This document shows positions 27,999-62,766 of a stretch of DNA of 64,000 bases, piece by piece; positions within the stretch are counted from its first letter, which is position 1, and each line of letters opens with the position of its first letter. The DNA is from Planctomycetia bacterium (GTDB lineage Bacteria > Planctomycetota > UBA8108 > UBA1146): contig JAAXJX010000011.1 of NCBI GenBank assembly GCA_012269595.1, positions 68,184 to 132,183 of the forward strand, written 5' to 3'. The notes beneath the pieces were generated by a model. That model worked only from the letters and a program-made list of their open reading frames with translations. It was not told where the DNA came from and searched no databases. Made by a program: the position numbers and the translations under genes.

Positions 27999-28112
27999 GG
28001 TGTCTCTCCAATTGATCGTATCGGGCCTCAAAAGAACCGAAGCCGTCAGGGTCACAAAAGAATAACACCGAATCTGCTAAATGGTTGCACCTAATGATTA
28101 CCGCAGGGTGAC

Positions 28113-43975: not shown

Positions 43976-44163
43976 CAGGCAAATTGGGAAAAAAAGATCC
44001 CGTTGCCCTGATCGTGGTTGGAAATGGTTCAAAGTTCCTCCTCGAAAGCAAAAATGTCCGTGGGGTCCGTTCTGACAGGCTTCGATCGGATCGATTCGGT
44101 GCACCCGGGGATGACGCCTTCTTTATTGGTGTTATTCTATGATTGAGTAAGGGGGAGATTCCA

Positions 44164-45855: not shown

Positions 45856-45889
45856 ATTCGAAGTCGGGATTCAGATCTGCTGAGGGTAA

Positions 45890-49484: not shown

Positions 49485-50312
49485 GTGAGGATTCCGATGC
49501 GTAAAGCGGTTTGTTCCTGGTCGCTGCAACCCACAGGGGTGCAGGATCTTTTGACCAAAGTTGGTGAAACCGGTGTGAAGGGGATTCAGCTCGCCCTGGA
49601 TCCTTTGCGTTCTTCCACTTCCGTGACCGATGATCTGCAACTGTTGCGGGATTCGGATTTGACCATCGTCAGCGGAATGATGGAGATGGTGGGGGAAGAT
49701 TATTCGACCTTCGAGACGATCAGGGAAACCGGTGGAGTTCGTCCTGATCAAACCTGGGAGTCCAACCTTGAAAATGCCCGTGGGAACGCGGTATTGGCCA
49801 GTGAGTTGGGATTGAGTCTGGTCACTTTTCATGCCGGTTTCATTCCACATGATCCCGCTGACCCGGAGCGACAGCAGATGATGGATCGCCTGGTGATGAT
49901 CGCAGACGTCTTTGCTGAACAGGGTTGTCAGGTTGCGCTGGAGACGGGCCAGGAAAGCGCAGAAACTTTGCTGACCGTCCTTCAGGAAATGAATCACCCG
50001 GGAATCGGAGTCAATTTCGATCCGGCCAACATGATCCTCTACGGTATGGGTGAACCGGTCTCCTCTCTGGATCTCCTTTCTGCCTGGGTTCGGCAAATCC
50101 ACATCAAGGACGCCGACCCCTCTTCAACAGCCGGGACCTGGGGGAGTGAAGTCCCCGTGGGCACGGGAAGTGTCGACTGGGGGCGGTTTTTTGAAGTCGT
50201 CAGGAAGTGCAACCTTGCCGTGGATCTCGTGATTGAACGAGAAGCGGGCGACGATCGTATCGGGGACGTGAAAGTGGCTTCTTCAAGGTTGAGCGAGTGG
50301 CAGGGAATTTGA
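49485..50312 (+). CDS. Sugar phosphate isomerase/epimerase (xylose-isomerase-like TIM barrel), cytoplasmic
   Basis: 275 aa with AP-endonuclease-2/TIM-barrel family features (...VTFHAGF..., ...HIKD...); no signal peptide. Confidence 0.85.
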   Translation: MRIPMRKAVCSWSLQPTGVQDLLTKVGETGVKGIQLALDPLRSSTSVTDDLQLLRDSDLTIVSGMMEMVGEDYSTFETIRETGGVRPDQTWESNLENARGNAVLASELGLSLVTFHAGFIPHDPADPERQQMMDRLVMIADVFAEQGCQVALETGQESAETLLTVLQEMNHPGIGVNFDPANMILYGMGEPVSSLDLLSAWVRQIHIKDADPSSTAGTWGSEVPVGTGSVDWGRFFEVVRKCNLAVDLVIEREAGDDRIGDVKVASSRLSEWQGI

Positions 50313-50323
50313 GGGGCAGGAAG

Positions 50324-51343
50324 ATGGCGACAGGTATTGGAATCATCGGTTTTGGATTTATGGGCAAAACCCATTTGCATGCATGGCTGGATGCCATCGA
50401 AGGCGGTGCCGATGCCAGAGTGGTGGCGATCCAGTGCCCCGAGGATCTCACTTCTGCTTCGGCAGGGAATGTCGAGACGGGAGCGGAAGAGGAAGTGAAT
50501 CCTCTCGACCTGGGGATCACCCATCACCGGGATCTGGATTCTTTTCTGGCGGATTCCCGGGTGGAAGCGGTCAGCCTGTGTACACCCACGGACACCCATG
50601 TGGAGCTGGCCACTCTCGTCTTGCAGGCGGGCAAGGATGTCCTCATCGAAAAGCCGGTTGCCCTCGAGGCTGAAGAGATTGAGAAGCTTGCGAAGGTGGC
50701 TCAAGAGAACGACAGGGAATGCATGCCAGCGATGTGCATGCGTTACTGGCCTGGTTGGTCATGGTTGCGAGAGCAGGTCAAAACCGGTTGTTTGGGCCCG
50801 GTCCACACTGCCCACTTTCAGAGGATTGGTGCCATACCCGGCTGGAGTCAGGATTTTTATCACGATGAATCCCGTTCCGGTGGAGCCCTGACCGATCTTC
50901 ATATTCATGACGTGGATTTCATTCTTTCCACTTTCGGATCTCCTGCGACGGTGACGACCAGTGGTAACCGCAATCAGATGATGACAACGTACGCCTACCC
51001 TGAAGGTCCCTCTTCTGTCACAGCGGAGGGTGCGTGGTATCCCGCGGCCAGTTATCCCTTTCAAATGCGCTATCGGGTTTCCTTTGCTGATGGGGTCGCA
51101 GATTACGACCTTGCACGGGAGGGACGGGAGTTGCTTCTTTATCAGGGAGATTCGGTGGAGGAGATCGAACTGACTCCGACCGGTGGATATCAGTTGGAGA
51201 TCGAGCACTTTCTGGCTCTGGTCAGAGGGGAGTCCCCAACACCTGCTCCGACCTTGGCGGAGGCGGCAAATGTGGCACGGTGGATTCAGGCGGAGGCCCG
51301 AAGTCTCTCCAGTGGCCTGGCGACAGAAAGAGATCCCTCCTGA
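50324..51343 (+). CDS. Gfo/Idh/MocA-family NAD(P)-dependent oxidoreductase (no signal peptide)
   Basis: Rossmann motif IGIIGFGFMGKTH and an EKP motif (VLIEKPVA). Start at the ATG with a GAGGGG...GAAG RBS; the ORF track starts at 50297 (GTG). Confidence 0.85.
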   Translation: MATGIGIIGFGFMGKTHLHAWLDAIEGGADARVVAIQCPEDLTSASAGNVETGAEEEVNPLDLGITHHRDLDSFLADSRVEAVSLCTPTDTHVELATLVLQAGKDVLIEKPVALEAEEIEKLAKVAQENDRECMPAMCMRYWPGWSWLREQVKTGCLGPVHTAHFQRIGAIPGWSQDFYHDESRSGGALTDLHIHDVDFILSTFGSPATVTTSGNRNQMMTTYAYPEGPSSVTAEGAWYPAASYPFQMRYRVSFADGVADYDLAREGRELLLYQGDSVEEIELTPTGGYQLEIEHFLALVRGESPTPAPTLAEAANVARWIQAEARSLSSGLATERDPS

Positions 51344-51420
51344 CAGAGGGGGGGCGGAAATGAAAAGTGGTGTGATCCGGGGTTCGGATCACACCACTTT
51401 TTTATGCTGAGACAGCCTTG

Positions 51421-52782
51421 CTAGTTGCAGTAAGGGTGCTCAAGACAGTCGGTCGGCTCCTGATCTGCGGCGATTCCGCAATCCGGGAACGGTGCGGAAG
51501 GTGCCGCTCCGTCAAGGAACTGGTAACTGATCACGAAGACCGGGTCTGCTGTGTCGTAGAGACCGTCGCCATTGGCGTCGTTGGCGGCCAGGCAGTTGTA
51601 GGTCGGTCCACCCAGGAAGAGATCTGAGAGCATCCAGATCGCATCGGCGACGTCATTGCGACCGTCCGCATTGGCGTCACTGCGCAGGAATGGAGTGACC
51701 GAAACCGCTTCAAAAGTGAGCGAGGCATCGTTGAGCTGGGCAGCCAGTGAGTTTCCACCGACCACCATGACGTTGCTGACAGGAGGGGATCCGAGTCCAC
51801 CGGACCATGTCAGAGCGGAAGATGCTCCGTCCTCGTCTCCTGCCAGAGCTCCGGCAACCGTGGAGTAATCGGCGATGACGGCGGTCTCACCTGCAGTGCT
51901 GAAGGTGATCGTCTCGGCACCAATGAAGGAGTAAACGACTCCACCGGTCCAACCGTCGGTGTAGATGCTGAGTTCAGCGAATCCGGGGCCATTGCCTCCG
52001 TCGAGAGCCGCCACGGATCCGGTGAAGGAAACGGAGGTGGCTTCGAGAAGGGCCGGGTCATGGGCCAGGCCCATGGAGAAGCCCTGAGTGGCATTCGGGA
52101 ACGGAGTTCCCAGTGCACTGTTGTCAATCTCGGCAATGGTGACGTCGATGCTGAAGGAGGCATTGCCGTCGTCCGGCGAGTAATTGACGGTTCTGTCGGA
52201 AGCGGTGTAGGAGTAGCCCGGATCGGGGATGTCGATCACGGTGATGGATCCACTGTTTGTTGAAGGAGTATTGGAAGATCCGCCAACAACGACCACCGTG
52301 CTGACCGGCGGTGATCCAAGGGTTGAGCAGTAATCGAGGGGGAAATCTCCCGGAGAAGCTCCGCCGTCGATATCGTAGCTGGTGCTGGCCATAAGGAATC
52401 CACTGGTTCCACCAGCAAGAGTTGCGCAGCCGGTGAAGCAGATGACGACTCCCTGAGTCCAACCATCCGAGTAAAGGCTGCCCTCAAGGAAGTCCGCTGG
52501 ACTGCCATTTTTGACGGTGGAGGTACTGTTGGCCGCACCATCTCCAGTGCCGATGGCTGTAGCGGTTACTTCGGGTCCATTACAAACACCCAGAGACCAG
52601 CCCTGGATATCGCCTGCCCCGGCGTCCAAGGTGAAATCGACCGTGACTGATGAACCTGCGGCTCCGGAAGCGGATCCCCCGTTCATCGTCTGTGATTCGG
52701 CAGTGCCGAAGGGGAACAAAGTCATGACCGCGAAGATCATGGCATGTGAAATAAAACGTGACATCGAACGAATTCCTCCCAT
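51421..52782 (-). CDS. Secreted protein with two copies of a ~120-aa domain, a C-terminal dockerin pair and a Cys-rich tail
   Basis: Signal peptide MSRFISHAMIFAVMTLFPFGTAESQ. Repeated domain (...GFSMGLAHDPALLE...LGSPPVSNVMVV...). Dockerin repeats DANADGRNDVADAIWMLSDLF and ANDANGDGLYDTADPVFVISYQF, ending ...PFPDCGIAADQEPTDCLEHPYCN. Confidence 0.75.
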   Translation of the reverse strand: MGGIRSMSRFISHAMIFAVMTLFPFGTAESQTMNGGSASGAAGSSVTVDFTLDAGAGDIQGWSLGVCNGPEVTATAIGTGDGAANSTSTVKNGSPADFLEGSLYSDGWTQGVVICFTGCATLAGGTSGFLMASTSYDIDGGASPGDFPLDYCSTLGSPPVSTVVVVGGSSNTPSTNSGSITVIDIPDPGYSYTASDRTVNYSPDDGNASFSIDVTIAEIDNSALGTPFPNATQGFSMGLAHDPALLEATSVSFTGSVAALDGGNGPGFAELSIYTDGWTGGVVYSFIGAETITFSTAGETAVIADYSTVAGALAGDEDGASSALTWSGGLGSPPVSNVMVVGGNSLAAQLNDASLTFEAVSVTPFLRSDANADGRNDVADAIWMLSDLFLGGPTYNCLAANDANGDGLYDTADPVFVISYQFLDGAAPSAPFPDCGIAADQEPTDCLEHPYCN

Positions 52783-52935
52783 GGGTCGATAAAGAACGAC
52801 AGGTCTCAGAAGTTTGAATATTTACTTTGGGCCATAATTCTGGCCGTTAGTAAGTAGTTTCTTTGTGTTTACAGGGGGATTCAAGTACTAGTTTGTAAAA
52901 TTCGCACGAGAAAATGTCACTGGAGGAGATTGGGG

Positions 52936-53640
52936 CTAAAGTTCTTTAATGGTGATATTACGGAACTTTAGGGGCGTTCCATGGCTTTGAAGTTCTATGG
53001 GACCGCGGATGGGGAGCGGCTCGTTCCTCCTCCAATAGTTTTCCAGGGGAGTGTCTTTTACAACTAACCTGTCATTCAAGTATACGGTGACGCGATCCGC
53101 CTTCATCAGGATGCGGAAGTGGTTCCAATCCCCAAGGGGTGAATCAGCCACTTCCAGAGGGTTCGCCCCCCCTTTTTGATTGTTGAAGAGTCCTCCGGAG
53201 CCGACTGGGTTTTTCAGGTGATCCCAGATCTGGACCTGCGGGCAACCCCTCAAGTAGACCCCGCTGTCACCTCCCGGGGTGATCTGCCACTCCATTTGCA
53301 ACTCAAAATCTCCATATTCCTTTTGAGTCACCAGATGGCTGCCTTTGCCGTCGAAGCACAGGACTCCGTCCTCCACTTTCCAGTGCCGGCGCATCTTTTC
53401 ATTCGCTTCGTGTTGGAGCTGTGTTTTCTCTGCGGCGCCCATGTTCTGTAACTGATAGGGGTTTGCAACCAGCCCCTGCCATCCATTCAGGGAGACTCCG
53501 TCGAAGAGAGAGATCTCCCGGGAGTGGGTTTCAGGGCCAATTGAGGCGATTCCGGAGCAGCCTGCGATCAGTGCAGGCAGGATCAGTGCTGGAAGGATGA
53601 AACACAGAGGGGTCCTCAGGGTGAGTAATCGGGTCTTCAT
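52936..53640 (-). CDS. DUF1080 (3-keto-disaccharide hydrolase / LamG-like) lipoprotein
   Basis: Lipobox LIAGCSG. DUF1080 pattern (FDGVSLNGWQG ... VEDGVL ... YGDFELQMEWQITPGGDSGVYLR ... GPIELQSHG). Confidence 0.85.
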   Translation of the reverse strand: MKTRLLTLRTPLCFILPALILPALIAGCSGIASIGPETHSREISLFDGVSLNGWQGLVANPYQLQNMGAAEKTQLQHEANEKMRRHWKVEDGVLCFDGKGSHLVTQKEYGDFELQMEWQITPGGDSGVYLRGCPQVQIWDHLKNPVGSGGLFNNQKGGANPLEVADSPLGDWNHFRILMKADRVTVYLNDRLVVKDTPLENYWRRNEPLPIRGPIELQSHGTPLKFRNITIKEL

Positions 53641-53845
53641 CGGTCATTTCCTTCCGTTCATGGGTTCAGGGGTCGGTCATAGCCTCGGAAGATCACAGAC
53701 CTTACGATCTTTTCCCTGTTGATCCGCCATGGAGTCGAAGCTGGATGGGGTTCTGGCAGGCCAAATCGGGCCTGGTTCGCATTTTTCAGTCGAGACCCGT
53801 CGGAGTCTGCCTCGGTTGACGACCTCTGTCACAGGAAGGGTAACC

Positions 53846-55198
53846 GTGACTCAGCCCCTCGATAAAGTTCTGAATTTCAAATTGTCGCTGATGATGTTTC
53901 TCCAGTATGCGATCTGGGGGGCATGGCTGCCGCTGTTGTACCCCTATCTCAAGAATCACATGAAGTTTGCCGACGGAGACATTGGCAACATGTTCGCGGT
54001 GGGTGCCGTCGGTGCGATTCTGGCTCCCTTTATCGCCGGTCAGATCGCGGATCGATTCTTTCGGACGGAGCATTTCCTGGCACTCAGCCATCTGGCCGGT
54101 GCTGCGGTGGTTTGGCAGTTGGCTTCCATCGAGCCCGGCGAGGGGGCTGTGAACCAATTCCTGATCTTCAGCCTGATCTACAGTTTGATCTATTCACCAA
54201 CTCTGTCGTTGACGAATTCCCTGAGTTTTCATCATCTTCCCGATCGGGATCGCGACTTTGGTCGTGTTCGGGTATGGGGCACGGTGGGGTGGATCGCAGT
54301 TGGAATCATCATCGGCCAACATCTTCTCAAAAGTTATGCTGGGGGAGATTTTGCCAATGCGGCGAGTCCCGAGGTTTATGCGGGCTACGCTGATGCGTTC
54401 AGACTGTCAGCCATCATCGGTGCAGGAATGGGAATCTTCTGTTTTCTGCTTCCTGCCACGCCGCCCGGAGGCAAAGCGGAGGACAACGCAACCTTTGCCG
54501 CTCTGGGTGAGGTCAAGCGCCAGCCTTTGCTGACCCTTTTTGCTCTTGCGGTGCCGATCTCCTGTATCCATCAGTTCTACTTTGTTCACACATCCGGATT
54601 CCTGGGCACACTGCAAACGCAGTTGAATGACGCCGATCTCGCGAACTCCATCAATACCCTGTTTGGTATCGGTGGCGGAGGCCTGATGACGGTGGGTCAA
54701 ATGAGTGAGATTCTGGTTCTCGCGATGATTCCCCTGCTGGCCAGCAAGTTTTCGCGGAAACAACTGCTGCTCATGGGATTGATCGCCTATGCCTTGCGCA
54801 TGGCCATCTTCGCTTATGCCCCGGGTTGGCTCGGTGAATCTGCCATGGGGCTGGTACTAGTGGGAGTGGCTCTGCACGGATTCTGTTTCGGCTGCTTCAT
54901 CTTTGTCGCCTTCATGATCGTCGATGAAGAGTGCCGGATGGACATCCGTGCCAGCGCACAGAGTCTCTTTAATCTGGTGATTGTCGGAATCGGCATCATC
55001 GTGGGCAGCAAGATCGCCACAAGCGTCTCTGTTTGGGCGAATGACACCAGTGTGATCACTGAGGGGACGCCCTGGCATTTGCCTTATGAGCGTCTCTTCT
55101 CGATTCCGATGTGGGCGAGTGTGATCTGTATTGGAATCCTGCTCTTGTGCTACCCCTCTGGATCCAACTCCGACAACGAAGAAAAAACGGCCTCATGA
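53846..55198 (+). CDS. MFS transporter, nucleoside:H+ symporter (NHS) family-like
   Basis: 12-TM protein whose N-terminus ([23 protein letters not shown]) resembles NupG/XapB-type transporters. Start set at the GTG with an AGGAAGGG RBS; the ORF track starts at 53729. Confidence 0.75.
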
Positions 55199-56163: not shown

Positions 56164-56188
56164 ATTGAAAAGCAGAGAGGAACCTGCA

Positions 56189-57529
56189 ATGACACAGCAA
56201 AATCAAAATGCGGCACCCCAAAACGGCCGCAGGGACTTTCTCAAGGGTGCAGCTCTTGCTGCAGGAGCGATGGCCGTCACCGGTTGTGTTGCTCCGGGAG
56301 CGGCGCGGATCGGCGCGGTACCGGGAACCATCGGAACCGCCCGCACTCGAACTCCAGTGGGAGAAGACGGTCTGGTCAATATCGCCATTCTGGGCACCGG
56401 CGGCATGGGTGGGGGTCACATCGATTCCTTCATGCGCTTTGCCAAGAAGGGTGAGGAGAAGGTTCAGATCGTTGCGGTCTGTGACGTCAATACGGTTCGC
56501 CGCAAGGTGGCCGAAGACAAGGTCAACAACAGTCAGGGTGGAGAGGTGGCGGTCTACACCGATTACCGCGAGATGCTCGAGAGAGATGACATTCACGGAG
56601 TGGTCATCGCCTCACCGGAGCACTGGCATGGCAAGCAGGCAGAGGACTGCCTTCTTGCGGGTAAAGACGTTTACCTCGAAAAACCGATGACACTGAACCT
56701 TCCCGACGCCCTGCGCCTGCGGGAAGTGGTTCGGAAGAATCCGGATGTCCTGATTCAGGTGGGCACCCAAAAGATCATGTTGCCCAAATACAAGGCGGCT
56801 CAAGAACTGATGGGACGCGGGGACATCGGCAAGATGACCTTCAGCCAGACCTCATACTGTCGCAACTCCAAGAATGGAGAGTGGCTCTACTACGGCATCG
56901 ATCCCAAGGTACAACCGGGTGAAACTCTCGATTGGGATATGTGGTGCGGCCCTCTGGGCAAGAGGGAGTGGGATCCGGCGTTCTATGCACGCTGGCGCCG
57001 TTACCGGGATGCCTCGACGGGCATCATCGGAGACTTGCTGGTCCATGAGGTGACTCCGTTGGTCATGGCTCTCGACCAGGGCTGGCCGACACGCGTGGTC
57101 GCGACCGGCGGTCACTATGTCGACAAGGCGATGGAAAACCACGACCAGGTCAACCTGCAGGTACAGTTTGAAAAAGGACATACCCTGATCGTTGCAGGAT
57201 CGACCTGTAACGAAAATGGTCTGGAGACGATGGTTCGTGGCCATATGGGAACCGTCTACCTCAATGGCGGAAACTGCAAAATGGTTCCGCAGCGGATCTT
57301 TGCCGACGATGTTGACCCTGAAGAGGTCGTCTGTGAAAACATCGGCAATGATCAGGATGCCCTGCGCAAGAATTGGCTCGATTGCATCCGTACCCGTCGC
57401 CAGCCCGACTCCAATGTCGAGTTGGGAACCAAAGTGATGGTGATCGTTGATCTGGCTTCCCGTTCGATGTGGGAAGGCAAGGCCTTCGAGTTTGACCCGG
57501 CCACGATGACGGCCTCCGCCATCGGCTAG
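56189..57529 (+). CDS. Gfo/Idh/MocA-family oxidoreductase with a Tat signal (periplasmic)
   Basis: Tat motif NGRRDFLKGAALAAGAMA, a Rossmann-like IAILGTGGMGGGH and an EKP motif (VYLEKPMT). ATG with a GAGAGGAA RBS. Confidence 0.85.
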   Translation: MTQQNQNAAPQNGRRDFLKGAALAAGAMAVTGCVAPGAARIGAVPGTIGTARTRTPVGEDGLVNIAILGTGGMGGGHIDSFMRFAKKGEEKVQIVAVCDVNTVRRKVAEDKVNNSQGGEVAVYTDYREMLERDDIHGVVIASPEHWHGKQAEDCLLAGKDVYLEKPMTLNLPDALRLREVVRKNPDVLIQVGTQKIMLPKYKAAQELMGRGDIGKMTFSQTSYCRNSKNGEWLYYGIDPKVQPGETLDWDMWCGPLGKREWDPAFYARWRRYRDASTGIIGDLLVHEVTPLVMALDQGWPTRVVATGGHYVDKAMENHDQVNLQVQFEKGHTLIVAGSTCNENGLETMVRGHMGTVYLNGGNCKMVPQRIFADDVDPEEVVCENIGNDQDALRKNWLDCIRTRRQPDSNVELGTKVMVIVDLASRSMWEGKAFEFDPATMTASAIG

Positions 57530-57532
57530 GGG

Positions 57533-58459
57533 GTGGACTTGTTGGAGCGCGGCGCCCTCGCGGCGATGGGGACACGATTTGAAATCATCGTCGCGGGGGA
57601 GCCCGGCTCCCACGCGAGGGCTTCCATCGAGGCAGCCCTCGCTGAGATTGAGCACTGTCACAAGCTCTGGAGTCCCTTCAGCGGGGACAGCATGTTGGCT
57701 CGTCTCCACGATCCCATGCGTGAAGTGGTCCCCATCGATGGGTTAACGCTGGAACTGCTGTCTCTCTGCGAAAGACTGGAACGGGAGACCGGTGGAGCCT
57801 TCTCGGCGACGGTGGGTTCTGTTCTGGCTTCCCGTGATCCCCGCAGGGAGTGCCATGAGGGGGCAGGGGTTCCTGAGGGCCGATCCGCATATGAAATCCA
57901 TGACCAGCCTCCCTGCGTACGAATCCTCCATCCCGATGTCCGTTGGGATTTCGGAGCCATCGCCAAAGGTTTTGCTCTGGATCTCGCCGTGGAGGTCCTG
58001 CGGGAGTCGGGAGTGGAAAACGCATTTTTGCATGGGGGATCGAGCAGTATCACCGTATTGGGCAGTGCTCCGGGATTGACCGGTTGGGACGTCCAGCTTC
58101 CTCATGGAGAAGTGGTTTCGCTGCAGGACGGGCAGAGCCTCGGTGTCAGCAGTGATGCCGGAAGCTACGAGGGAGATCATTTGATCGACCCTTTCGGCGG
58201 AGAATGGATCGAGAGTCAGTCCATGGGCTGTTGGGTCCTTGGGAAAAGTGGTGCGGAAGTGGATGCATGGGCCACCGCGCTCCTGGTTTCCCGACTCCGT
58301 TCCACAACAGCAACGAATCCCGGTAATGAGGGGGAAGACTGGGGCTTCTTCGAGCACCCCCGTTCAGAGAAGCCTGTCCATGATGAGACTGCTGAAGTGC
58401 AAGTCTCTTCATTGGTTGCTGAATCCCCTCGTGATTGCGGGTTCAGGAAAGAAATTTGA
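57533..58459 (+). CDS. apbE: FAD:protein FMN transferase (ApbE family)
   Basis: ApbE hallmarks AAMGTRFEI (MGT motif) and GAIAKGFALD. Confidence 0.85.
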   Translation: MDLLERGALAAMGTRFEIIVAGEPGSHARASIEAALAEIEHCHKLWSPFSGDSMLARLHDPMREVVPIDGLTLELLSLCERLERETGGAFSATVGSVLASRDPRRECHEGAGVPEGRSAYEIHDQPPCVRILHPDVRWDFGAIAKGFALDLAVEVLRESGVENAFLHGGSSSITVLGSAPGLTGWDVQLPHGEVVSLQDGQSLGVSSDAGSYEGDHLIDPFGGEWIESQSMGCWVLGKSGAEVDAWATALLVSRLRSTTATNPGNEGEDWGFFEHPRSEKPVHDETAEVQVSSLVAESPRDCGFRKEI

Positions 58460-58505
58460 CCGACGAGAGAAACCTATCGGGGAAAGGATCCCCACTGGAG
58501 GAAAC

Positions 58506-59735
58506 ATGGCGACTGATCGCAGAGAGTTCATGATTCAAAGTGCCGGTGCTTTGGCGGGGGTAGCCCTGCTTCCGGGTTTGGAAGGCTGGGCCCGATCCAT
58601 CGAGGATGGTTATCCGGTGGGAATCATCGGTACCGGTCGCCAAGGGCGGGCCATCGCTGCTGAATTACAAAAGATCGGTGCAAAGATCGTGGCGATCTGT
58701 GACAACGATGCTCCCCGTCTTCGCAGCGGCAGTCGCCGGGTCAAGGAAGCGAAGACCTATTCGGATGCCGCCGAAATGCTGGCCACGGAAAAAGGAATGG
58801 AAGCGGTCTTCGTGGCCACTCCCACCCATTTGCATCGGGAAGTGGTGGAGGCAGCCATCGCTGCAGGGAAACACGTGTACTGTGAGGCTCCCCTTGCCCA
58901 TACCATCGAAGACGCAAAGGCCATCGCAATGGCTGCTCGAGGCAGCTCGAAAGTGTTTCAGGCTGGACTGCTGGCCCGTTCGAACCCGGTGTACTCTCTG
59001 GCACGTTCCTTCTATCGCACCGAGGCGTTTCTCAAACTGGTCTCCATGAGAGGGCAAAACTCGCGCAAGGACAGTTGGCGTCAGGCGGCATCCACGGCCG
59101 AGCGTCAGGCTCGTCTCGATTGGCGTTTGAATGAAGCCACTTCAACCGGATTGCCGGGTGAGTTGGGGACCCACCAGTTCGATGTTTTCCACTGGTTCAC
59201 CGGCAAGTATCCGGTGCGTGTGCAGGGACGTGGGGGAGTTCTGGTTTGGGAGGATGGTCGCAAGGTTGCCGACACCGTCAATCTCGTTCTCGAGATGGAA
59301 GGCGGAGAATGTATCGAATATCAGGCGACTCTCGGCAACTCCTATGGCGGGCGCTATGAAGTGCTCCATGGAGTCAACTCCGCGTTCCGATTGGCCTGGT
59401 CCCATGGCTGGATGTTCAAGGAAGCGGATGCGGCAACTCAGGGATGGGAAGTCTATGCCAATCGTCAAAGATTCTTCAATGACGAAGGCATCACCCTGAT
59501 TGCTGACGCAACCAAGTTGGCAAGCCAGAATAAATTGAAGGATGGTGTGGGACTTCCCCATGATTCTCTCTACTACGGAATCATGGATTTCCTCACCAGT
59601 TGTCAGGAAGAGAAGTTCCCTACGACGGGAGCAGGTGAGGGGTACCGGGCTACCGTGGTGGGCATTGCTGCTCACAGGGCAGTGGTGGAGGGGACGACCG
59701 TGGAAATCTCCCCTGACGACCTGAAGGAGGCCTGA
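58506..59735 (+). CDS. Gfo/Idh/MocA-family oxidoreductase with a Tat signal
   Basis: Tat motif TDRREFMIQSAGALAGVA, a Rossmann-like VGIIGTGRQGRA and a family-characteristic CEAP segment (EKP-type position). ATG with a GGAGG RBS. Confidence 0.85.
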   Translation: MATDRREFMIQSAGALAGVALLPGLEGWARSIEDGYPVGIIGTGRQGRAIAAELQKIGAKIVAICDNDAPRLRSGSRRVKEAKTYSDAAEMLATEKGMEAVFVATPTHLHREVVEAAIAAGKHVYCEAPLAHTIEDAKAIAMAARGSSKVFQAGLLARSNPVYSLARSFYRTEAFLKLVSMRGQNSRKDSWRQAASTAERQARLDWRLNEATSTGLPGELGTHQFDVFHWFTGKYPVRVQGRGGVLVWEDGRKVADTVNLVLEMEGGECIEYQATLGNSYGGRYEVLHGVNSAFRLAWSHGWMFKEADAATQGWEVYANRQRFFNDEGITLIADATKLASQNKLKDGVGLPHDSLYYGIMDFLTSCQEEKFPTTGAGEGYRATVVGIAAHRAVVEGTTVEISPDDLKEA

Positions 59736-59736
59736 T

Positions 59737-60510
59737 TTGAAAATCGGAATCGGAGAGGGGCTTCACTCTCTTCCATTGGGAGCGCGACTGGGTTTGACGG
59801 GATTGTGCATCGTTCTTTTGGGCGGGCTCTTTGCCAGCTTCCAGCATATGAAGAATCACTATGCCGATCGCGATGCCAAACCCGAGTTTTCCACGGACGA
59901 TGTCGTCAGTGCCTATCATGGTCTCGACAGTCCTGCCCCACTGAAAGTGGCCATCGAGAGTGGGCATCCTGAAACCCTTCCGCAAGAGCAACGTGACATC
60001 CTTCTCAGCTGGTTGACGGGGGATCGTGTACTCATGAAGTATGACAGTGAAGACTGGCCTCAGGTTCCGGCAGATATTCTGGATGAATATTGCCTCTCCT
60101 GTCATACGCGTGATCTGGCAGAGCAACAGGGGATTCCTGCCCTCGAATATTTCGACGATATCAAGCCACTGGTGATTTCACGCAAGGTGGAGAGAACTCC
60201 GGATGAAATCCTTGCAGCATCGACCCACGCTCACGCCCTGAGCATGTCGATTCAGGGGATCGTGGTGCTGTTTCTGGCTTTGCTGACTGCGTGGCCGACA
60301 AAGGGGATCAGTCTTCTTTGTGCATTCATGGGCCTGGGTCTGGTCGGTGACATCGGGGGTTGGTGGCTCGCCCGATACAGTGCATCATTTGTCACCATGA
60401 TCATGATATGCGGAGCGGCATACAGCGGCGTACAGACCCTGTTGCTCGGCGGGATCATCTGGGACACCTGGCTCGGTCGGGGAAGCTCAAAAGAGCAAGA
60501 CCAGAGCTGA
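59737..60510 (+). CDS. Membrane protein with a single CXXCH motif (putative c-type cytochrome subunit)
   Basis: An N-terminal TM helix, a periplasmic segment containing CLSCH, and two or three C-terminal TM helices. Sits between two Tat-Gfo/Idh/MocA genes, 1 nt after the previous stop. Confidence 0.55.
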   Translation: MKIGIGEGLHSLPLGARLGLTGLCIVLLGGLFASFQHMKNHYADRDAKPEFSTDDVVSAYHGLDSPAPLKVAIESGHPETLPQEQRDILLSWLTGDRVLMKYDSEDWPQVPADILDEYCLSCHTRDLAEQQGIPALEYFDDIKPLVISRKVERTPDEILAASTHAHALSMSIQGIVVLFLALLTAWPTKGISLLCAFMGLGLVGDIGGWWLARYSASFVTMIMICGAAYSGVQTLLLGGIIWDTWLGRGSSKEQDQS

Positions 60511-60542
60511 ACAGATCAAAAACGCTCTTCGAAGGAGGAACG

Positions 60543-61820
60543 ATGACTTCAAAATCCTCAGGAACTCACCGCAGGGATTTTCTCAAGGGTGCGGCAGCCA
60601 CTGCGGCGCTGGCTGGATTGGCACCGGGTCTTTCCATGGGAATGGGCCCTGTTTCCGGATCGGATGAGATTCGTGTCGGATTGATCGGTTGTGGTGGTCG
60701 CGGTTCCGGTGCTGCTGACAACTGTGTGAAAGCAGCAGACGGAGTCAAAATCGTCGCCATGGCGGATCTGTTCCGCGACCGACTGGAGTCGAGTCGCAGT
60801 CATTTGATGGGACTTGGAGACAGTTTTGACGTACCTGAAGAGCGCTGTTTTGTCGGCTTCGATGCCTATCAGCAGCTGCTCGCCTGTGATGTCGATCTGG
60901 TCATCCTTGCGACTCCTCCGGGGTTCCGTCCGATGCACTTTGAAGCAGCCATCGAGGCGGGGAAGCACGTCTTTATGGAAAAACCGGTAGCCACCGATGC
61001 ACCGGGAATCCGCAAGGTTCTGGCAGCAGCCCGAAAGGCCAAGGAAAAGAATCTGGCCGTGGTCGCCGGAACCCAGAGACGCCACCAAAAGGGATACATC
61101 GAAACGATGGAGAGAATCCACGATGGAGCCATCGGTGAGTTGGTCGGCGCCCAGGTCTATTGGAATCAGGGCGGTCTGTGGGTCGTTCCGCAGAACAAGG
61201 AAATGTCGGACATGGAGTGGCAGTGTCGAAACTGGCTCTATTTCACCTGGGCCAGTGGCGACCATATCGTCGAACAGCACATTCACAATATTGATGTCAT
61301 GAATTGGGCTTTCGGCGGTCCTCCGAAGAAAGCGTTGGCGATGGGAGGAAGGCAGGTCCGTACCGGAGAACAGTATGGAAACATCTTCGATCACTTCGCC
61401 GTCGAGTTTGAATTTGAAGGCGGTGTTCGTGCTCTCAGCGAATGTCGCCAGATCGACAACTGCTGGAATCGGGTTTCGGAGAAGATCATCGGAACTGAGG
61501 GAACCGCCAACCCTTCAGGAAGTATCTCCAGCAGCAAGAATGGTGACTGGCGTTCCAGCGGCGGAGGAAAGAATGCCTACGTCCAGGAGCACACGGATCT
61601 GATCGAGAGTATCCGTCGTAATGAAGTTCTGAATGAGGGCGAGACGGTCGCGATGAGCACCCTGACCGCCATCATGGGCCGCATGAGTGCCTACACCGGC
61701 AAGGAAGTGACCCTCGAGTTCGCTCTTCAGTCGCAGGAAAGCCTGTTGCCCGAAAAATGGGAGTTTGGACCTCTGGCCACACCTCCCATCGCAGTTCCCG
61801 GAAAAACCCCGTTGATCTGA
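60543..61820 (+). CDS. Gfo/Idh/MocA-family oxidoreductase with a Tat signal
   Basis: Tat motif THRRDFLKGAAATAALAGLA, a Rossmann-like VGLIGCGGRGSGA and an EKP motif (VFMEKPVA). ATG with a GGAGGAA RBS. Confidence 0.85.
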   Translation: MTSKSSGTHRRDFLKGAAATAALAGLAPGLSMGMGPVSGSDEIRVGLIGCGGRGSGAADNCVKAADGVKIVAMADLFRDRLESSRSHLMGLGDSFDVPEERCFVGFDAYQQLLACDVDLVILATPPGFRPMHFEAAIEAGKHVFMEKPVATDAPGIRKVLAAARKAKEKNLAVVAGTQRRHQKGYIETMERIHDGAIGELVGAQVYWNQGGLWVVPQNKEMSDMEWQCRNWLYFTWASGDHIVEQHIHNIDVMNWAFGGPPKKALAMGGRQVRTGEQYGNIFDHFAVEFEFEGGVRALSECRQIDNCWNRVSEKIIGTEGTANPSGSISSSKNGDWRSSGGGKNAYVQEHTDLIESIRRNEVLNEGETVAMSTLTAIMGRMSAYTGKEVTLEFALQSQESLLPEKWEFGPLATPPIAVPGKTPLI

Positions 61821-61836
61821 TACTGAAGGAGACTCC

Positions 61837-62766
61837 ATGGATCGTCGCACCTTTATGACTCTGACCGCACTTGGATTGCTGGGAGGGTGTGCCAACACCA
61901 TGACCGGAAGTCGAAATCCCTGGGCTGGAAATTACCCGTCGCTGGTGGGAAACAACCGATCCAAAATTCTGAAGTGTCTCAAGATCGGTATGGTCAATGT
62001 CGAGGGAACCCTCCATGAAAAGTTCCAGCTTCTGAAAGAAGTCGGTTTTGACGGAGTGGAGATGGATTCTCCTTCCGGAGTCGATTGGGACGAAGTGGTT
62101 CAGGCTCGTGATGATACCGGGTTGGTGATTCCGGGAGTGGTTTGCTCAACTCATTGGGGAAAGCCGCTCTCCTCTCCCGACCCGGCGGTTCGCAAGTCCG
62201 GTATCGAGGGAATGGAAACGGCACTCAGAGACTGTCGAAAGGTGGGTGGCTGGACCGTTCTTCTGGTTCCCGGTGTGTGTAACAAGGAAGTTTCTTATGA
62301 GCAGGCCTGGGAGAGATCGACGGAGGCGGTCAAGGAGTTGATTCCTCTCGCCGAGGAATTGAAAGTTCAGATTGCTTTCGAAAATGTCTGGAACAACTTT
62401 ATCACCAAAGCGGATGAGGCCGTTCGCTATGTAGACCAGTTTGAGAGTCCGACGGTGGGTTGGTATTTCGATACGGGCAACATTGTTCGTTACGAAGAAC
62501 CGGTCGACTGGGTCCGTAAACTGAATTCCAGAATCCTCAAACTCGATATCAAGGACTACTCTCGCAAACTGATGGAAGCGGAGGGGGTCTGGGCCGGTTT
62601 CCGATGCAAGATCGGGGATCCGGACTCGTCGGTCGGTTGGGCTGCCGTCATGGCTGAAATCCGCAAACTCGGTTTCTGTGGCTGGGGTTCGGCGGAAGTC
62701 TCCGGTGGAGGCAAGGAACGCCTGGCAGACATCTCGAAAAGAATGGACGACGTTTTCAACCGCTGA
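61837..62766 (+). CDS. Sugar phosphate isomerase/epimerase (xylose-isomerase-like TIM barrel), Tat/lipoprotein signal
   Basis: MDRRTFMTLTALGLLGGC signal and the TIM-barrel family fold. Confidence 0.85.
   Translation: MDRRTFMTLTALGLLGGCANTMTGSRNPWAGNYPSLVGNNRSKILKCLKIGMVNVEGTLHEKFQLLKEVGFDGVEMDSPSGVDWDEVVQARDDTGLVIPGVVCSTHWGKPLSSPDPAVRKSGIEGMETALRDCRKVGGWTVLLVPGVCNKEVSYEQAWERSTEAVKELIPLAEELKVQIAFENVWNNFITKADEAVRYVDQFESPTVGWYFDTGNIVRYEEPVDWVRKLNSRILKLDIKDYSRKLMEAEGVWAGFRCKIGDPDSSVGWAAVMAEIRKLGFCGWGSAEVSGGGKERLADISKRMDDVFNR

What the first reader, a model, noticed from the sequence alone, without database searches (positions are those of the whole stretch)
49485..62766. Periplasmic Gfo/Idh/MocA, xylose-isomerase-like TIM-barrel and DUF1080 locus; putative oxidative (3-keto) glycoside catabolic system
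Four Gfo/Idh/MocA oxidoreductases are present (three with Tat signals), along with four xylose-isomerase-like TIM-barrel proteins (two secreted), a DUF1080 lipoprotein and an NHS-type transporter. The same three-family combination was characterised in Bacteroides thetaiotaomicron BT2157-BT2159 and in C-glycoside-cleaving bacteria. There the sugar is oxidised at C3 by a Gfo/Idh/MocA glycoside 3-dehydrogenase, the 3-keto-glycoside is cleaved by TIM-barrel lyases (or by DUF1080 3-keto-disaccharide hydrolases), and the products are then taken up. The present locus is a greatly expanded, periplasm-targeted version with its own transporter.
Basis: partly seen in the sequence, partly recalled or inferred. 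Interest (0 to 1): 0.7.

Follow-up and report, generated by a model that had tools for sequence, protein, structure and literature searches.

The report
Respiratory-linked periplasmic sugar oxidation operon
A marine planctomycete carries a tightly conserved 12-gene cluster for oxidising sugars outside the cytoplasm. At its centre is an undescribed four-gene unit (two exported dehydrogenase-like proteins, a flavin-attaching enzyme and a haem-motif membrane protein) that probably passes the electrons to the respiratory chain.

Summary
The locus is real, at the stated coordinates, and is a conserved unit. All 12 genes keep the same order and strand in 15 marine Planctomycetota MAG loci, down to about 54% identity.

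Two points are wrong or missing:
- There are three xylose-isomerase-like TIM barrels, not four.

The comparison with BT2156-2159/AL1-4 holds only at Pfam level. Every protein scores far below the curated family cut-offs.

The main result is a four-gene core, Tat-Gfo, then signal-less ApbE, then Tat-Gfo, then CxxCH membrane protein. It was present in all seven distant contexts examined, one of them lacking the membrane protein. The second Gfo (G9) has lost the catalytic Lys and carries an invariant Thr336 in a subfamily-specific insert. In relatives this site reads as the canonical ApbE motif DxxSGAT, and ApbE sits immediately upstream in 10 of 10 such loci.

I infer an FMN- and haem-linked periplasmic sugar dehydrogenase feeding respiration. 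The substrate is unknown and nothing has been tested biochemically.

The parts
49485..50312 (+). G1: cytosolic xylose-isomerase-like TIM barrel (275 aa)
   Evidence: PF01261, 90 bits. Closest solved structure is 3tva, an uncharacterised TIM barrel, at 4.5e-32. No signal peptide. Syntenic in the MAG loci.
50324..51343 (+). G2: cytosolic Gfo/Idh/MocA oxidoreductase (339 aa), EKP motif intact
   Evidence: PF01408, PF22725 and PF02894. The best NCBIfam hit, IolG, scores 94 bits against a 355-bit cut-off; BT_2159_fam scores 29 against 650. An 11-base gap after G1. A G1/G2-like pair also sits beside the core in L030 and L031.
51421..52782 (-). G3: secreted 453-aa protein with two internal ~130-aa repeats and, by my reading of the sequence, an Asp/Asn-rich dockerin-like C-terminus; function unknown
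   Evidence: No Pfam hit even at E<=5. The repeats are 38% identical, E 6e-17. Syntenic in the full MAG loci at 51-95% identity.
52936..53640 (-). G4: DUF1080 / '3-keto-disaccharide hydrolase' family lipoprotein (234 aa)
   Evidence: PF06439, 148.9 bits. Lipobox LIAGC. Weak matches to solved DUF1080 proteins, including 8tda and 8rr2, at about 1e-8. No NCBIfam hit.
53846..55198 (+). G5: NHS-type MFS transporter (450 aa)
   Evidence: PF03825, 262 bits. The start at 53846 follows the independent gene calls. The stop overlaps the G6 start by 4 bases. NHS genes also flank the core in L030 and L087.
55195..56163 (+). G6: exported TIM barrel (322 aa) with a Tat motif (DRRKFL) and lipobox (LSGC)
   Evidence: PF01261, 104 bits. 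Matches PDB 4ovx, an uncharacterised 'xylose isomerase domain protein', at 1.3e-121. Only its C-terminal ~60 residues resemble the DgpC-type C-deglycosidase subunit (3.8e-7).
56189..57529 (+). G7: Tat-exported Gfo/Idh/MocA with a C2-type C-terminal domain (446 aa), EKP intact; proposed catalytic dehydrogenase of the core
   Evidence: PF01408 and PF19051, plus a TAT signal. Best PDB matches are 8tdf and 8tdh at 1e-17. BT_2158_fam scores 103 bits against 750. It is 74-79% identical where G10 is only about 54%. It is the first gene of the core in all seven distant contexts.
57533..58459 (+). G8: ApbE-family FAD:protein FMN transferase (308 aa) without a signal peptide, so cytoplasmic
   Evidence: PF02424, 108 bits. 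The ORF cannot extend upstream because G7's stop lies 3 bases before it. It keeps the AKG, DHLIDP (general-base His) and DAWATAL motifs. All core orthologues start within 45 residues of the AMGTRFE motif. It is the fastest-evolving gene of the cluster, at 38-48% identity.
58506..59735 (+). G9: Tat-exported Gfo/Idh/MocA-like protein (409 aa) lacking the catalytic Lys (EAP in place of EKP); proposed FMN carrier
   Evidence: PF01408. EAP/ECP occurs in all orthologues. The insert at residues 298-349 is almost invariant, with T336 invariant in 21 sequences, yet is modelled at pLDDT <50. Lys loss and an [AS][TS] dipeptide at positions 335-336 co-occur: 31 of 39 against 9 of 53. ApbE-Gfo fused ORFs exist.
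59511..59513 (+). Codon of Thr336 of G9: candidate FMN attachment site (…GITLIADATKLAS…)
   Evidence: Invariant in A3. Aligned relatives read DFTSGAT, TSGATHDL, DTGATAQT and IAGATQLA. The canonical ApbE motif is D-x-x-[S/T]-G-A-[S/T]. This assignment is an inference and has not been tested.
59737..60510 (+). G10: membrane protein (257 aa) with four predicted TM helices and a periplasmic helical domain carrying an invariant CxxCH; proposed haem c membrane anchor and electron exit
60543..61820 (+). G11: third Tat-exported Gfo/Idh/MocA (425 aa), EKP intact
   Evidence: PF01408 and TAT_signal. All NCBIfam hits are far below their cut-offs. It is 75-83% identical across the marine clade. A G11-like Tat-Gfo with the same VFMEKPVA motif lies beside a TIM barrel in L087.
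61837..62766 (+). G12: exported TIM barrel (309 aa) with a Tat motif (DRRTFM) and lipobox (LLGGC)
   Evidence: PF01261, 129 bits. The nearest solved relatives are sugar 3-epimerases (UlaE at 1e-11, TM0416, psicose/tagatose epimerases), with a faint hit to a 3-keto-D-glucoside 4-epimerase. NCBIfam hits are below their cut-offs.

Best explanation
The locus is one conserved catabolic system that oxidises a sugar or glycoside in the periplasm and couples that oxidation to the respiratory chain.

Proposed mechanism:
1. G7, and probably G11, are Tat-exported Gfo/Idh/MocA dehydrogenases with the catalytic EKP Lys intact. They oxidise a secondary alcohol of the substrate, using NAD(P) that I assume to be tightly bound as in GFOR and AL3/BT2158. 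By analogy with BT2158/AL3, the position is most likely C3.
2. The reduced cofactor is not recycled by a keto-sugar, as in Bacteroides. It is re-oxidised through G9, a catalytically disabled Gfo paralogue.
3. G9 carries an FMN attached to Thr336 by the cytoplasmic ApbE G8 before Tat export.
4. The flavin converts two-electron chemistry to one-electron chemistry and reduces the haem c of the membrane protein G10. G10 hands the electrons to quinone or a cytochrome.
5. The keto-sugar intermediates are processed in the periplasm by the exported TIM barrels G6 and G12 and by the DUF1080 lipoprotein G4, through elimination, hydration or epimerisation.
6. The product enters the cell through the NHS transporter G5 and is finished by the cytosolic pair G1/G2.

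Shown: domain content, export signals, operon packing, synteny, the recurrent four-gene core, loss of the catalytic Lys in G9, the invariant Thr and CxxCH, and ApbE adjacency and fusion.

Inferred: flavinylation of G9, haem binding by G10, the direction of electron flow, a G7:G9:G10 complex, C3 regiochemistry and the substrate.
For: (1) The cluster is a unit. All 12 genes have identical order and strand in 15 MAG loci, and G5-G12 have gaps of -4 to 46 bases.

(2) The core G7-like, ApbE, G9-like, Aq_1264_TM recurs in six distant contexts (L027-L031, L087), and in L086 without G10. Three of these have no TIM, DUF1080 or transporter genes nearby, so the core is self-sufficient.

(3) G9 orthologues all have E[A/C]P instead of EKP. 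They keep the GxGxxG motif and the Asp (D66) that I read as the NAD-ribose ligand.

(4) Of the 92 full-length proteins among the 150 best 50%-identity cluster representatives returned for G9, loss of the Lys goes with an [AS][TS] dipeptide at the Thr336 position. The counts are 31 of 39 against 9 of 53. The sequences are related, so this is descriptive rather than a true probability.

(5) Relatives read DFTSGAT, a perfect canonical ApbE motif, at that site.

(6) In metagenome loci of those relatives, an ApbE ORF lies immediately upstream of the Gfo gene in 10 of 10 cases with enough upstream DNA. No ApbE match was found in any of the roughly 40 loci with weaker Gfo hits.

(7) Four cluster representatives are in-frame ApbE-[Tat signal]-Gfo ORFs.

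(8) The core ApbEs have no signal peptide while G7 and G9 have Tat signals. This fits cofactor loading before Tat export. Cytoplasmic ApbEs are documented.

(9) G8 keeps the ApbE catalytic His and the Mg-binding motif.

(10) In G10 the CxxCH and five other polar residues at the predicted periplasmic membrane face are invariant over 15 sequences down to 36% identity. A pentahaem-motif protein elsewhere in the window suggests that the organism makes c-type cytochromes.

(11) DUF1080, TIM barrels and NHS genes recur beside the core in independent lineages. A Bacteroides finegoldii locus has Tat-Gfo, an 80-aa membrane protein, Gfo, DUF1080 and a signal-less ApbE between GH43 and GH115 genes.

(12) For BT2158/AL3 the re-oxidant of the bound cofactor in vivo is acknowledged as unknown or as a keto-sugar.
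Against: - No protein of the locus carries the canonical [ST]GA[TS] motif. G9 has ADAT, with Asp where the conserved Gly should be, and the effect of that change on ApbE is unknown.
- G7 also has an invariant AGST, so the flavin target could be G7 or something else.
- G8 is the least conserved gene of the cluster, which could mean relaxed constraint.
- G10 gives no significant match to any cytochrome family (E 0.21 only). CxxCH alone does not prove haem attachment.
- The G9 insert is modelled with low confidence, so nothing structural supports a swinging-arm flavin.
- How a hydride would pass from NAD(P)H bound in G7 to a flavin on G9 is unexplained.
- Some related ApbE-Gfo loci have a YceI-like lipoprotein or no obvious membrane partner instead of G10, so the electron exit is not universal.
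- Substrate and regiochemistry rest on families that score 7 to 20 times below curated cut-offs.
Confidence: 0.5

Rival explanations
1. This is a redox-neutral BT2156-2159/AL1-4-type pathway. The Tat-Gfo enzymes oxidise glycosides at C3, the TIM barrel and DUF1080 lyases cleave them, and the bound NAD(H) is recycled by reducing the 3-keto-sugar product. ApbE and G10 are then bystanders or serve some other purpose.
For: The domain families match the characterised clusters. The best structural and curated-family hits of G7 are to the glycoside 3-dehydrogenase clade. The AL/BT enzymes demonstrably work by ping-pong with keto-sugars.
Against: ApbE and the CxxCH protein are interleaved inside the operon with 1- to 46-base gaps. 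They are conserved with the two Gfo genes in every distant context, including loci with no lyase-type genes at all. G9 has lost the catalytic Lys. No protein reaches any BT/AL curated cut-off.
Confidence: 0.17
2. The machinery is the same respiratory-linked periplasmic dehydrogenase, but the substrates are free cyclitols or monosaccharides (inositol-, aldose- or anhydro-sugar-type) rather than glycosides. The TIM barrels act as inosose or keto-sugar isomerases, epimerases or dehydratases, and no glycosidic bond is cleaved.
For: The top curated hits of G2, G9 and G11 are IolG inositol 2-dehydrogenase (79-101 bits). G12 hits IolO, IolE and sugar 3-epimerases. The structural neighbours of G9 are levoglucosan dehydrogenase, 1,5-anhydrofructose reductase and inositol dehydrogenases. 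The core occurs alone in several genomes.
Against: All those scores are far below their cut-offs (355-650 bits) and are no better than the glycoside-dehydrogenase hits. DUF1080, characterised only on 3-keto-glycosides apart from one endo-xanthanase/lichenase, recurs with the core. Glycoside hydrolase and sulfatase genes flank related loci.
Confidence: 0.2
3. Electron flow is the reverse. G10 takes electrons from the quinol or cytochrome pool and, via FMN on G9, keeps the periplasmic Gfo enzymes reduced. They can then reduce keto-sugars, for example the products of an elimination/hydration pathway, outside the cytoplasm.
For: Many ApbE-dependent systems deliver electrons outward to periplasmic reductases. 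The AL/BT pathway ends with a 3-keto-sugar that must be reduced.
Against: A cytosolic Gfo/TIM pair (G1/G2) and a transporter are present for downstream handling. Spending respiratory electrons on sugar reduction gives no obvious benefit to what I assume is an aerobic marine heterotroph. No evidence on direction exists either way.
Confidence: 0.08
4. The Tat-Gfo proteins are themselves GH109/GH4/GH188-like NAD-dependent glycosidases. Oxidation, elimination, hydration and re-reduction all occur in one active site, and the rest of the cluster is accessory.
For: G7 carries the PF19051 C2-type C-terminal domain. From memory, and not checked here, this domain is typical of GH109-like proteins. The NAD-dependent glycoside hydrolases 8qc2 and 8qc8 are among the sequence and structural neighbours of G9.
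Against: The similarity is weak (8qc2 at 6e-6 to G9). It does not explain ApbE, the CxxCH protein or the Lys-less G9. Separate lyase-type families are present.
Confidence: 0.05

Closest known systems
Bacteroides thetaiotaomicron BT2156-BT2160 and Alistipes AL1-AL5 3-keto-glycoside pathway (Liu et al. 2021, PMC8121099; Nasseri et al. 2024 preprint 10.1101/2024.03.25.586180)
   Same: The same four Pfam families in one cluster: a Tat-exported Gfo/Idh/MocA, a secreted DUF1080, a secreted xylose-isomerase-like TIM barrel and a cytosolic Gfo. Both are periplasmic. G7's best curated family is BT_2158_fam, and its best solved-structure hits (8tdf, 8tdh) appear to come from the same work.
   Different: Every protein is far below the curated cut-offs (for example 103 bits against 750). 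No TIM barrel here is detectably similar to the AL1/BT1 lyases. This locus has three exported Gfo proteins, an NHS transporter, an ApbE and a CxxCH membrane protein, and one Gfo lacks the catalytic Lys. No SusR/DUF6377-type regulator appears among the genes scanned within about 5 kb upstream. The Bacteroides system is redox-neutral, whereas this one appears wired to an electron-transfer chain.
Membrane-bound flavoprotein-cytochrome c sugar dehydrogenases: LacABC lactose/glycoside 3-dehydrogenase and FAD glucoside 3-dehydrogenase-type complexes (as discussed in PMC8121099 and PMC9007349; subunit details from general knowledge)
   Same: Periplasmic oxidation of glycosides with electrons passed through a flavin and a c-type haem to the respiratory chain. 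They are encoded next to DUF1080 proteins, a transporter, epimerases and a reductase. This is the closest analogue for how the core is proposed to work.
   Different: The catalytic subunit there is a GMC-type FAD flavoprotein with a Tat 'hitch-hiker' subunit. No GMC domain is present here. Here the dehydrogenase has an NAD(P)-type Rossmann fold, the flavin would be FMN attached by ApbE, and the haem protein is a single-CxxCH four-helix membrane protein of an unrelated family.
ThuAB trehalose 3-dehydrogenase of rhizobia and Agrobacterium (as cited in PMC8121099)
   Same: ThuB is a Gfo/Idh/MocA protein that needs a second protein (ThuA) to form 3-keto-disaccharides. One G9-like cluster representative (P0136, 46% identical to G9) is fused to a ThuA domain.
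   Different: No ThuA domain is present in this locus. ThuAB are, to my knowledge, not associated with ApbE. I could not compare sequences with ThuB directly.
ApbE-dependent flavinylated electron-transfer proteins (NqrC/RnfG, NosR, PceC, DUF2271, DUF3570; cytoplasmic ApbE with Klebsiella fumarate reductase) (PMC8238504, PMC12052999)
   Same: A dedicated ApbE is encoded beside its presumed target and a membrane electron-transfer partner. The candidate site is a Thr preceded by Ala, and relatives have the full DxxSGAT motif. There is a precedent for signal-less cytoplasmic ApbE.
   Different: The presumed target is a Gfo/Idh/MocA fold, not an FMN_bind, DUF2271 or DUF3570 domain. Neither the 2021 survey nor the 2025 review mentions it. 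The survey kept only clusters in which a target gene had a signal peptide or lipidation site. The motif in G9 itself is non-canonical (ADAT).
Zymomonas glucose-fructose oxidoreductase (GFOR)
   Same: A Tat-exported Gfo/Idh/MocA enzyme exported with tightly bound NADP. It appears among the sequence and structural neighbours of G7 and G9.
   Different: GFOR recycles its cofactor with a second sugar substrate and has no flavin or haem partners. Identity to G9 is about 15-17%.

Membership tests
BT2156-2159 / AL1-4 3-keto-glycoside pathway | Tat-exported glycoside 3-dehydrogenase of the BT2158/AL3 family (NCBIfam NF058561, cut-off 750 bits) | tested here: not met
   G7 scores 102.7 bits, G9 69.6 and G11 49.2. 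G7 matches 8tdf and 8tdh at 1e-17, over the N-terminal half only. This is distant homology, not membership.
BT2156-2159 / AL1-4 3-keto-glycoside pathway | Secreted DUF1080 protein acting as 3-keto-alpha-glucoside 1,2-lyase/hydratase (BT2157/AL2) | tested here: inconclusive
   G4 meets Pfam PF06439 (148.9 bits against 26.8) and has a lipobox. It matches 8tda only over residues 84-130 at 1.3e-8 and has no NCBIfam hit. The catalytic residues named for BT2 were not checked.
BT2156-2159 / AL1-4 3-keto-glycoside pathway | Secreted TIM-barrel 3-keto-beta-glucoside 1,2-lyase (BT2156/AL1) | tested here: not met
   G6, G12 and G1 meet only the superfamily model PF01261. None has a PDB match at E<=0.01 to a chain with an AL/BT-series (8td*) entry code. 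Their best relatives are uncharacterised planctomycete TIM barrels or sugar epimerases.
BT2156-2159 / AL1-4 3-keto-glycoside pathway | Cytosolic Gfo of the BT2159 family (NF058563, cut-off 650 bits) | tested here: not met
   G2 scores 29.1 bits.
BT2156-2159 / AL1-4 3-keto-glycoside pathway | Formation and cleavage of 3-keto-glycosides | not testable with these tools
   Needs enzyme assays or NMR.
ApbE-flavinylated proteins | A functional ApbE flavin transferase encoded with the target | tested here: met
   G8 matches PF02424 at 108 bits against 25.6. It keeps the AKG, DHLIDP His and DAWATAL motifs. It lies immediately upstream of G9 in all contexts.
ApbE-flavinylated proteins | Canonical target motif D-x-x-[S/T]-G-A-[S/T] | tested here: not met
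   No [ST]G[AS][TS] occurs in any of G1-G12. G9 has LIADAT. Aligned relatives have DFTSGAT, TSGAT, DTGAT and IAGAT. Thr336 is invariant.
ApbE-flavinylated proteins | Covalent FMN phosphoester on the target Thr/Ser | not testable with these tools
   Needs co-expression, in-gel fluorescence and mass spectrometry.
c-type cytochromes | CxxCH haem-attachment motif in an extracytoplasmic domain | tested here: met
   C119, C122 and H123 are invariant in 15 sequences. The motif lies between predicted TM helices 1 and 2. By the positive-inside rule (my reading of the sequence and of the model) this domain is periplasmic.
c-type cytochromes | Significant match to a known cytochrome c family or fold | tested here: not met
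GMC-flavoprotein/cytochrome c sugar dehydrogenase complexes (LacABC, FAD-G3DH) | GMC-type FAD catalytic subunit | tested here: not met
   No GMC domain was found in any of the 12 proteins at E<=0.01. The resemblance is functional analogy only.
Gfo/Idh/MocA dehydrogenases (catalytically competent) | EKP motif Lys, with Asp/His in the C-terminal domain | tested here: met
   Met for G2, G7 and G11 (IEKP, LEKP, MEKP). Not met for G9 (CEAP, with the catalytic His position variable among orthologues).

The most novel reading that the evidence does not exclude
G7-G8-G9-G10 encode a previously unrecognised class of respiratory dehydrogenase. An NAD(P)-bound Gfo/Idh/MocA enzyme is paired with a pseudo-enzyme paralogue that carries a covalent FMN, installed by a cytoplasmic ApbE before Tat export. 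The FMN delivers electrons to a new family of single-haem four-helix membrane proteins.

This would make Gfo/Idh/MocA a new class of ApbE substrate. It would also give a general answer to how periplasmic NAD-dependent sugar dehydrogenases are re-oxidised. Related ApbE-plus-Tat-Gfo modules extend to Bacteroides polysaccharide-utilisation-type loci.
Probability: 0.4. Interest if true: 0.85.

Novelty: new variant of a known kind. Interest (0 to 1): 0.72.

Why it matters
Tat-exported Gfo/Idh/MocA 'oxidoreductases' and xylose-isomerase-like TIM barrels are, to my knowledge, among the most expanded and least understood gene families in Planctomycetota, Verrucomicrobiota and Bacteroidota.

The two studies that characterised such enzymes left open how the tightly bound NAD(H) is re-oxidised in a compartment without a nucleotide pool. 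In vitro it needs a keto-sugar.

This locus offers a concrete and testable answer for aerobic marine bacteria: a flavin- and haem-based wire to the respiratory chain, which would make sugar oxidation in the periplasm energy-yielding.

It also nominates a new ApbE substrate class. The systematic flavinylation survey would have missed it unless one of its four target genes carried a signal peptide, and the ApbE here has none. Finally, it gives a function to the uncharacterised PF27139 membrane family.

If only the conservative reading holds, the locus is still a well-delimited candidate for an unknown marine carbohydrate catabolic route.

Tried and rejected
- **Fourth TIM barrel.** I searched the whole interval and the whole window and found none.
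- **Equivalog assignment.** NCBIfam placed nothing; every hit is 4 to 40 times below its cut-off.
- **Solved-structure neighbours.** These were used to infer substrates. G6 and G1 hit only uncharacterised structural-genomics TIM barrels (4ovx, 3tva), and the Gfo proteins hit inositol, levoglucosan, DgpA and AL-type enzymes about equally. This does not discriminate.
- **Canonical flavinylation motif in the locus.** Absent.
- **Literature.** Searches for ApbE with Gfo/MocA, Gfo with flavinylation, ApbE with polysaccharide utilisation, and aq_1264 found nothing relevant.
- **Promoter and terminator scan.** No more hits than in shuffled sequence, so it is uninformative.
- **First attempt at related loci.** The 15-sequence alignment had no stretch conserved enough to search with. 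A tighter alignment worked.
- **ThuB comparison.** tblastn of G9 against plasmids listed no thuB-annotated gene among its 15 best hits, but it did turn up the Bacteroides finegoldii locus.
- **Chance juxtaposition.** Rejected on synteny.

Full report
**What is in the sequence**

The interval 49485-62766 holds twelve genes. Independent gene calls on four metagenome contigs that carry identical G12 proteins agree with them.

- G1 (49485-50312, +): PF01261 TIM barrel, no signal.
- G2 (50324-51343, +): Gfo/Idh/MocA, no signal.
- G3 (51421-52782, -): 453-aa secreted protein with no Pfam match even at E<=5. It has two internal repeats (38% identity, E 6e-17) and, by my reading, a dockerin-like Asp/Asn-rich C-terminus.
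- G4 (52936-53640, -): PF06439/DUF1080 protein with a lipobox.
- G5 (53846-55198, +): NHS-type MFS transporter (PF03825, 262 bits).
- G6 (55195-56163, +): TIM barrel with a twin-arginine motif and lipobox.
- G7 (56189-57529, +): Tat-Gfo with the C2-type C-terminal domain.
- G8 (57533-58459, +): ApbE (PF02424, 108 bits).
- G9 (58506-59735, +): Tat-Gfo.
- G10 (59737-60510, +): 257-aa membrane protein with a CxxCH motif. Precomputed annotation assigns it to PF27139 'Aq_1264_TM', a family absent from the local Pfam copy.
- G11 (60543-61820, +): Tat-Gfo.
- G12 (61837-62766, +): TIM barrel with a Tat motif and lipobox.

G5 to G12 are packed with gaps of -4 to 46 bases. G1/G2 are 11 bases apart, and G3/G4 diverge from G5.

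No other Gfo or TIM genes occur in the remaining 49 kb of the window, which encodes housekeeping and typical planctomycete genes.

**Source and conservation**

Identical or near-identical proteins come from marine metagenomes and Planctomycetota MAGs. I used G10 as the probe because it is the rarest component.

In 22 genome loci the twelve genes appear in the same order and orientation wherever the contig is long enough: 15 loci are complete and 7 are truncated by contig ends.

At the depth where G10 is about 54% identical:
- the three exported Gfo proteins remain 74-80% identical;
- the TIM barrels remain 56-82% identical;
- ApbE is only 38-47% identical.

This is a conserved functional unit, not a chance cluster.

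**A four-gene core**

I looked up more distant G10 and G9 homologues on long contigs, mostly annotated as Phycisphaerae or other Planctomycetota.

- Six contexts (L027-L031, L087) have the same ordered block: G7-like Gfo (with PF19051), then ApbE, then G9-like Gfo, then PF27139 protein.
- A seventh (L086) has the first three genes followed by a TIM barrel.
- In L027-L029 the block stands alone among unrelated genes, so it is self-sufficient.
- In L030, L031, L086 and L087 it is again accompanied by TIM barrels, a cytosolic Gfo/TIM pair, DUF1080 and/or an NHS transporter.
- In L087 it also sits near GH2, UxaC and sulfatase genes.

The association of the core with 'keto-sugar-processing' families is therefore recurrent across lineages.

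**G9 is not an ordinary dehydrogenase**

All G9 orthologues replace the EKP catalytic Lys with Ala or Cys, and the catalytic His position is variable. The GxGxxG motif is kept, as is D66, which I read as the NAD-ribose-binding Asp. G2, G7 and G11 keep EKP.

G9 also carries a subfamily-specific insert at residues 298-349 that is almost invariant (…AWSHGWMFKEADAPTQGWEVYANRQ.F.NDEGITLIADATKLA.QGKLK…). Thr336 is invariant in 21 sequences of 54-85% identity.

An exhaustive HMMER scan of 1.84 billion representative proteins found 37,880 Gfo relatives, but only 127 at E<=1e-30. Among the 92 full-length sequences in the 150 best hits, absence of the Lys goes with an [AS][TS] dipeptide at the Thr336 position: 31 of 39 against 9 of 53. 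These counts are descriptive, because the sequences are related.

In more distant Tat-Gfo relatives that keep the Lys, the aligned site reads DFTSGAT, TSGATHDL or DTGATAQT. In L086 it reads IAGATQLA. DFTSGAT is a perfect instance of the ApbE recognition motif D-x-x-[S/T]-G-A-[S/T], whose last residue receives FMN.

The AlphaFold model of G9 gives a confident Gfo fold but pLDDT below 50 for the invariant insert. That would fit a segment which orders only with a partner or cofactor, though this is inference. Structural neighbours are generic sugar dehydrogenases at 15-21% identity.

**Link between ApbE and the G9-type protein**

- Four cluster representatives are in-frame ApbE-[Tat signal]-Gfo ORFs (P0165, P0171-P0173). 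Another is a G9-like-ThuA fusion (P0136).
- In metagenome loci recovered with the canonical-motif relative P0184, an ApbE ORF lies immediately upstream of the Gfo gene in 10 of 10 loci with enough upstream DNA. No ApbE match appeared in any of the roughly 40 loci with weaker Gfo hits.
- The ApbEs of the core have no signal peptide, because the AMGTRFE start of the domain lies within 45 residues of the N-terminus. In the window the ORF cannot extend upstream.
- G7 and G9 always have Tat signals. Tat substrates are exported folded, together with their cofactors, and cytoplasmic ApbEs are documented. Flavinylation before export is therefore coherent.
- G8 keeps the ApbE AKG motif, the general-base His (DHLIDP) and the Mg-binding D..T motif.
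- A cultured gut bacterium shows the same logic. A Bacteroides finegoldii plasmid encodes GH43, Tat-Gfo, an 80-aa two-helix membrane protein, Gfo, DUF1080, a signal-less ApbE and GH115.

I found no paper linking ApbE or flavinylation with Gfo/Idh/MocA. The 2021 flavinylation survey and the 2025 ApbE review do not mention it. The survey kept only clusters in which a target gene had a signal peptide or lipidation site.

**G10**

Fifteen homologues down to 36% identity share invariant C119-x-x-C122-H123, H41, R45, D46, Y60, H77, H164, H166, D205 and W209.

The model (pLDDT 85) has four long helices and a helical domain between helices 1 and 2 that carries the CxxCH. By the positive-inside rule this domain and the conserved polar cluster face the periplasm (my reading).

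No solved structure resembles it beyond generic helical bundles. The only cytochrome signal is a sub-threshold class-I match at the motif (E 0.21). A five-CxxCH protein elsewhere in the window suggests that the organism matures c-type cytochromes.

**Comparison with known systems**

The BT2156-2160 and AL1-5 clusters contain the same families. There the Tat-Gfo (BT2158/AL3) oxidises glycosides at C3 with tightly bound NAD. The TIM barrel (AL1/BT1) and DUF1080 (AL2/BT2) proteins act as 3-keto-glycoside 1,2-lyases and hydratases. The cofactor is recycled by a keto-sugar, and the in vivo oxidant is unresolved.

Here membership fails at every curated threshold:
- G7 scores 103 bits against 750 for BT_2158_fam.
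- G2 scores 29 against 650 for BT_2159_fam.
- G4 has no NCBIfam hit.
- The TIM barrels are not detectably similar to AL1/BT1.

Inositol-dehydrogenase models score similarly low. It does not account for ApbE, G9's lost Lys or G10.

Functionally the core resembles the membrane-bound flavoprotein-cytochrome c glycoside dehydrogenases (LacABC type). Those are also encoded beside DUF1080 proteins, a transporter, epimerases and a reductase, but they are built from unrelated parts.

**Best explanation**

The locus encodes a periplasmic sugar/glycoside oxidation pathway.
1. G7, and probably G11, perform the oxidation.
2. Their dehydrogenase core is wired to the respiratory chain through FMN on G9, installed by G8.
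3. The electrons leave through haem c on G10.
4. G4, G6 and G12 transform the keto-intermediates.
5. G5 imports the product.
6. G1 and G2 complete catabolism in the cytoplasm.

The gene-level facts are shown. Flavinylation, haem binding, complex formation, direction of electron flow, regiochemistry and substrate are all inferred.

The main weaknesses are:
- the non-canonical ADAT site in G9;
- an alternative conserved AGST site in G7;
- the fast evolution of G8;
- the lack of any model for hydride transfer between subunits;
- the replacement of G10 by other partners in related loci, such as a YceI-like lipoprotein or a small TM protein.

My overall confidence in the full statement is about 0.5. 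Confidence that the twelve genes form one periplasmic carbohydrate-oxidising system is higher, about 0.8.

**Novelty and interest**

As a 3-keto-glycoside-type locus this is a new variant of a known kind. The conserved Gfo-ApbE-Gfo-haem protein module appears undescribed. It makes a standing question directly testable: how periplasmic NAD-dependent sugar dehydrogenases are re-oxidised. The most direct experiment is simple, namely co-expressing G8 and G9 and looking for covalent flavin.

Noticed in passing
window 14119-17119 (-): Adjacent genes for topoisomerase VI subunit A (Spo11/Toprim, PF21180 at 5.8e-60) and subunit B (PF09239 at 3.8e-58). Type IIB topoisomerase is, to my knowledge, mainly archaeal and eukaryotic and uncommon in bacteria.
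   Followed up: no
window 8931-11873 (-) and 7117-8931 (-): A 980-aa protein with five CxxCH motifs (weak cytochrome c554 match) plus TPR repeats lies directly downstream of an FG-GAP/ASPIC protein. A second FG-GAP protein and a TPR/glycosyltransferase-like protein sit at 44143-47857.
   Followed up: partly
window 62843-64000 (+), runs off the window: A secreted protein with no significant Pfam match starts 76 bases after G12. Only faint beta-propeller hints appear. It is called as a 1019-aa gene at the same position in all four metagenome contigs. Whether it belongs to the system is unknown.
   Followed up: partly
window 51421-52782 (-) (G3): A secreted 453-aa protein with two ~130-aa repeats and, by my reading, a dockerin-like C-terminus. 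It is conserved inside the cluster across the marine clade but absent from the distant core-only loci. It has no family assignment.
   Followed up: partly
L089 (Bacteroides finegoldii plasmid NZ_OY725916.1) 5819-15113: The locus encodes GH43, Tat-Gfo, an 80-aa two-helix His-containing membrane protein, Gfo, a tandem DUF1080 protein, a signal-less 'FAD:protein FMN transferase' and GH115. This is an ApbE-plus-Tat-Gfo module in a gut Bacteroides glycan-utilisation setting. Its Gfo has a conserved G-x-S-W-x-P-E site instead of the ADATK insert.
   Followed up: partly
L037 7536-8225 and L038 7522-8211: In some ApbE-Gfo loci the ApbE has a signal peptide. By my reading of its sequence, the gene after the Gfo encodes a YceI-like (polyisoprenoid/quinone-binding type) lipoprotein rather than a PF27139 protein. 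L087 also has a YceI-FGE-sulfatase fusion and a second, secreted ApbE nearby.
   Followed up: partly
P0136 (647 aa): A G9-like Tat-Gfo (46% identical, EAP, NATK site) is fused at its C-terminus to a ThuA 'trehalose utilisation' domain. This links the subfamily to the ThuAB 3-keto-disaccharide system.
   Followed up: partly
window 25161-28055 (-): A DUF1501/DUF1800 gene pair, which I recall as a typical planctomycete pairing of unknown function. Class-I fructose-bisphosphate aldolase lies next to it at 28113-29132.
   Followed up: no
window 57533-58459 (G8) compared with its neighbours, loci L005-L026: ApbE diverges much faster (38-48% identity) than the Gfo genes flanking it (74-89%) over the same set of genomes. 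The cause is unexplained. It could reflect relaxed constraint on a maturation factor.
   Followed up: no
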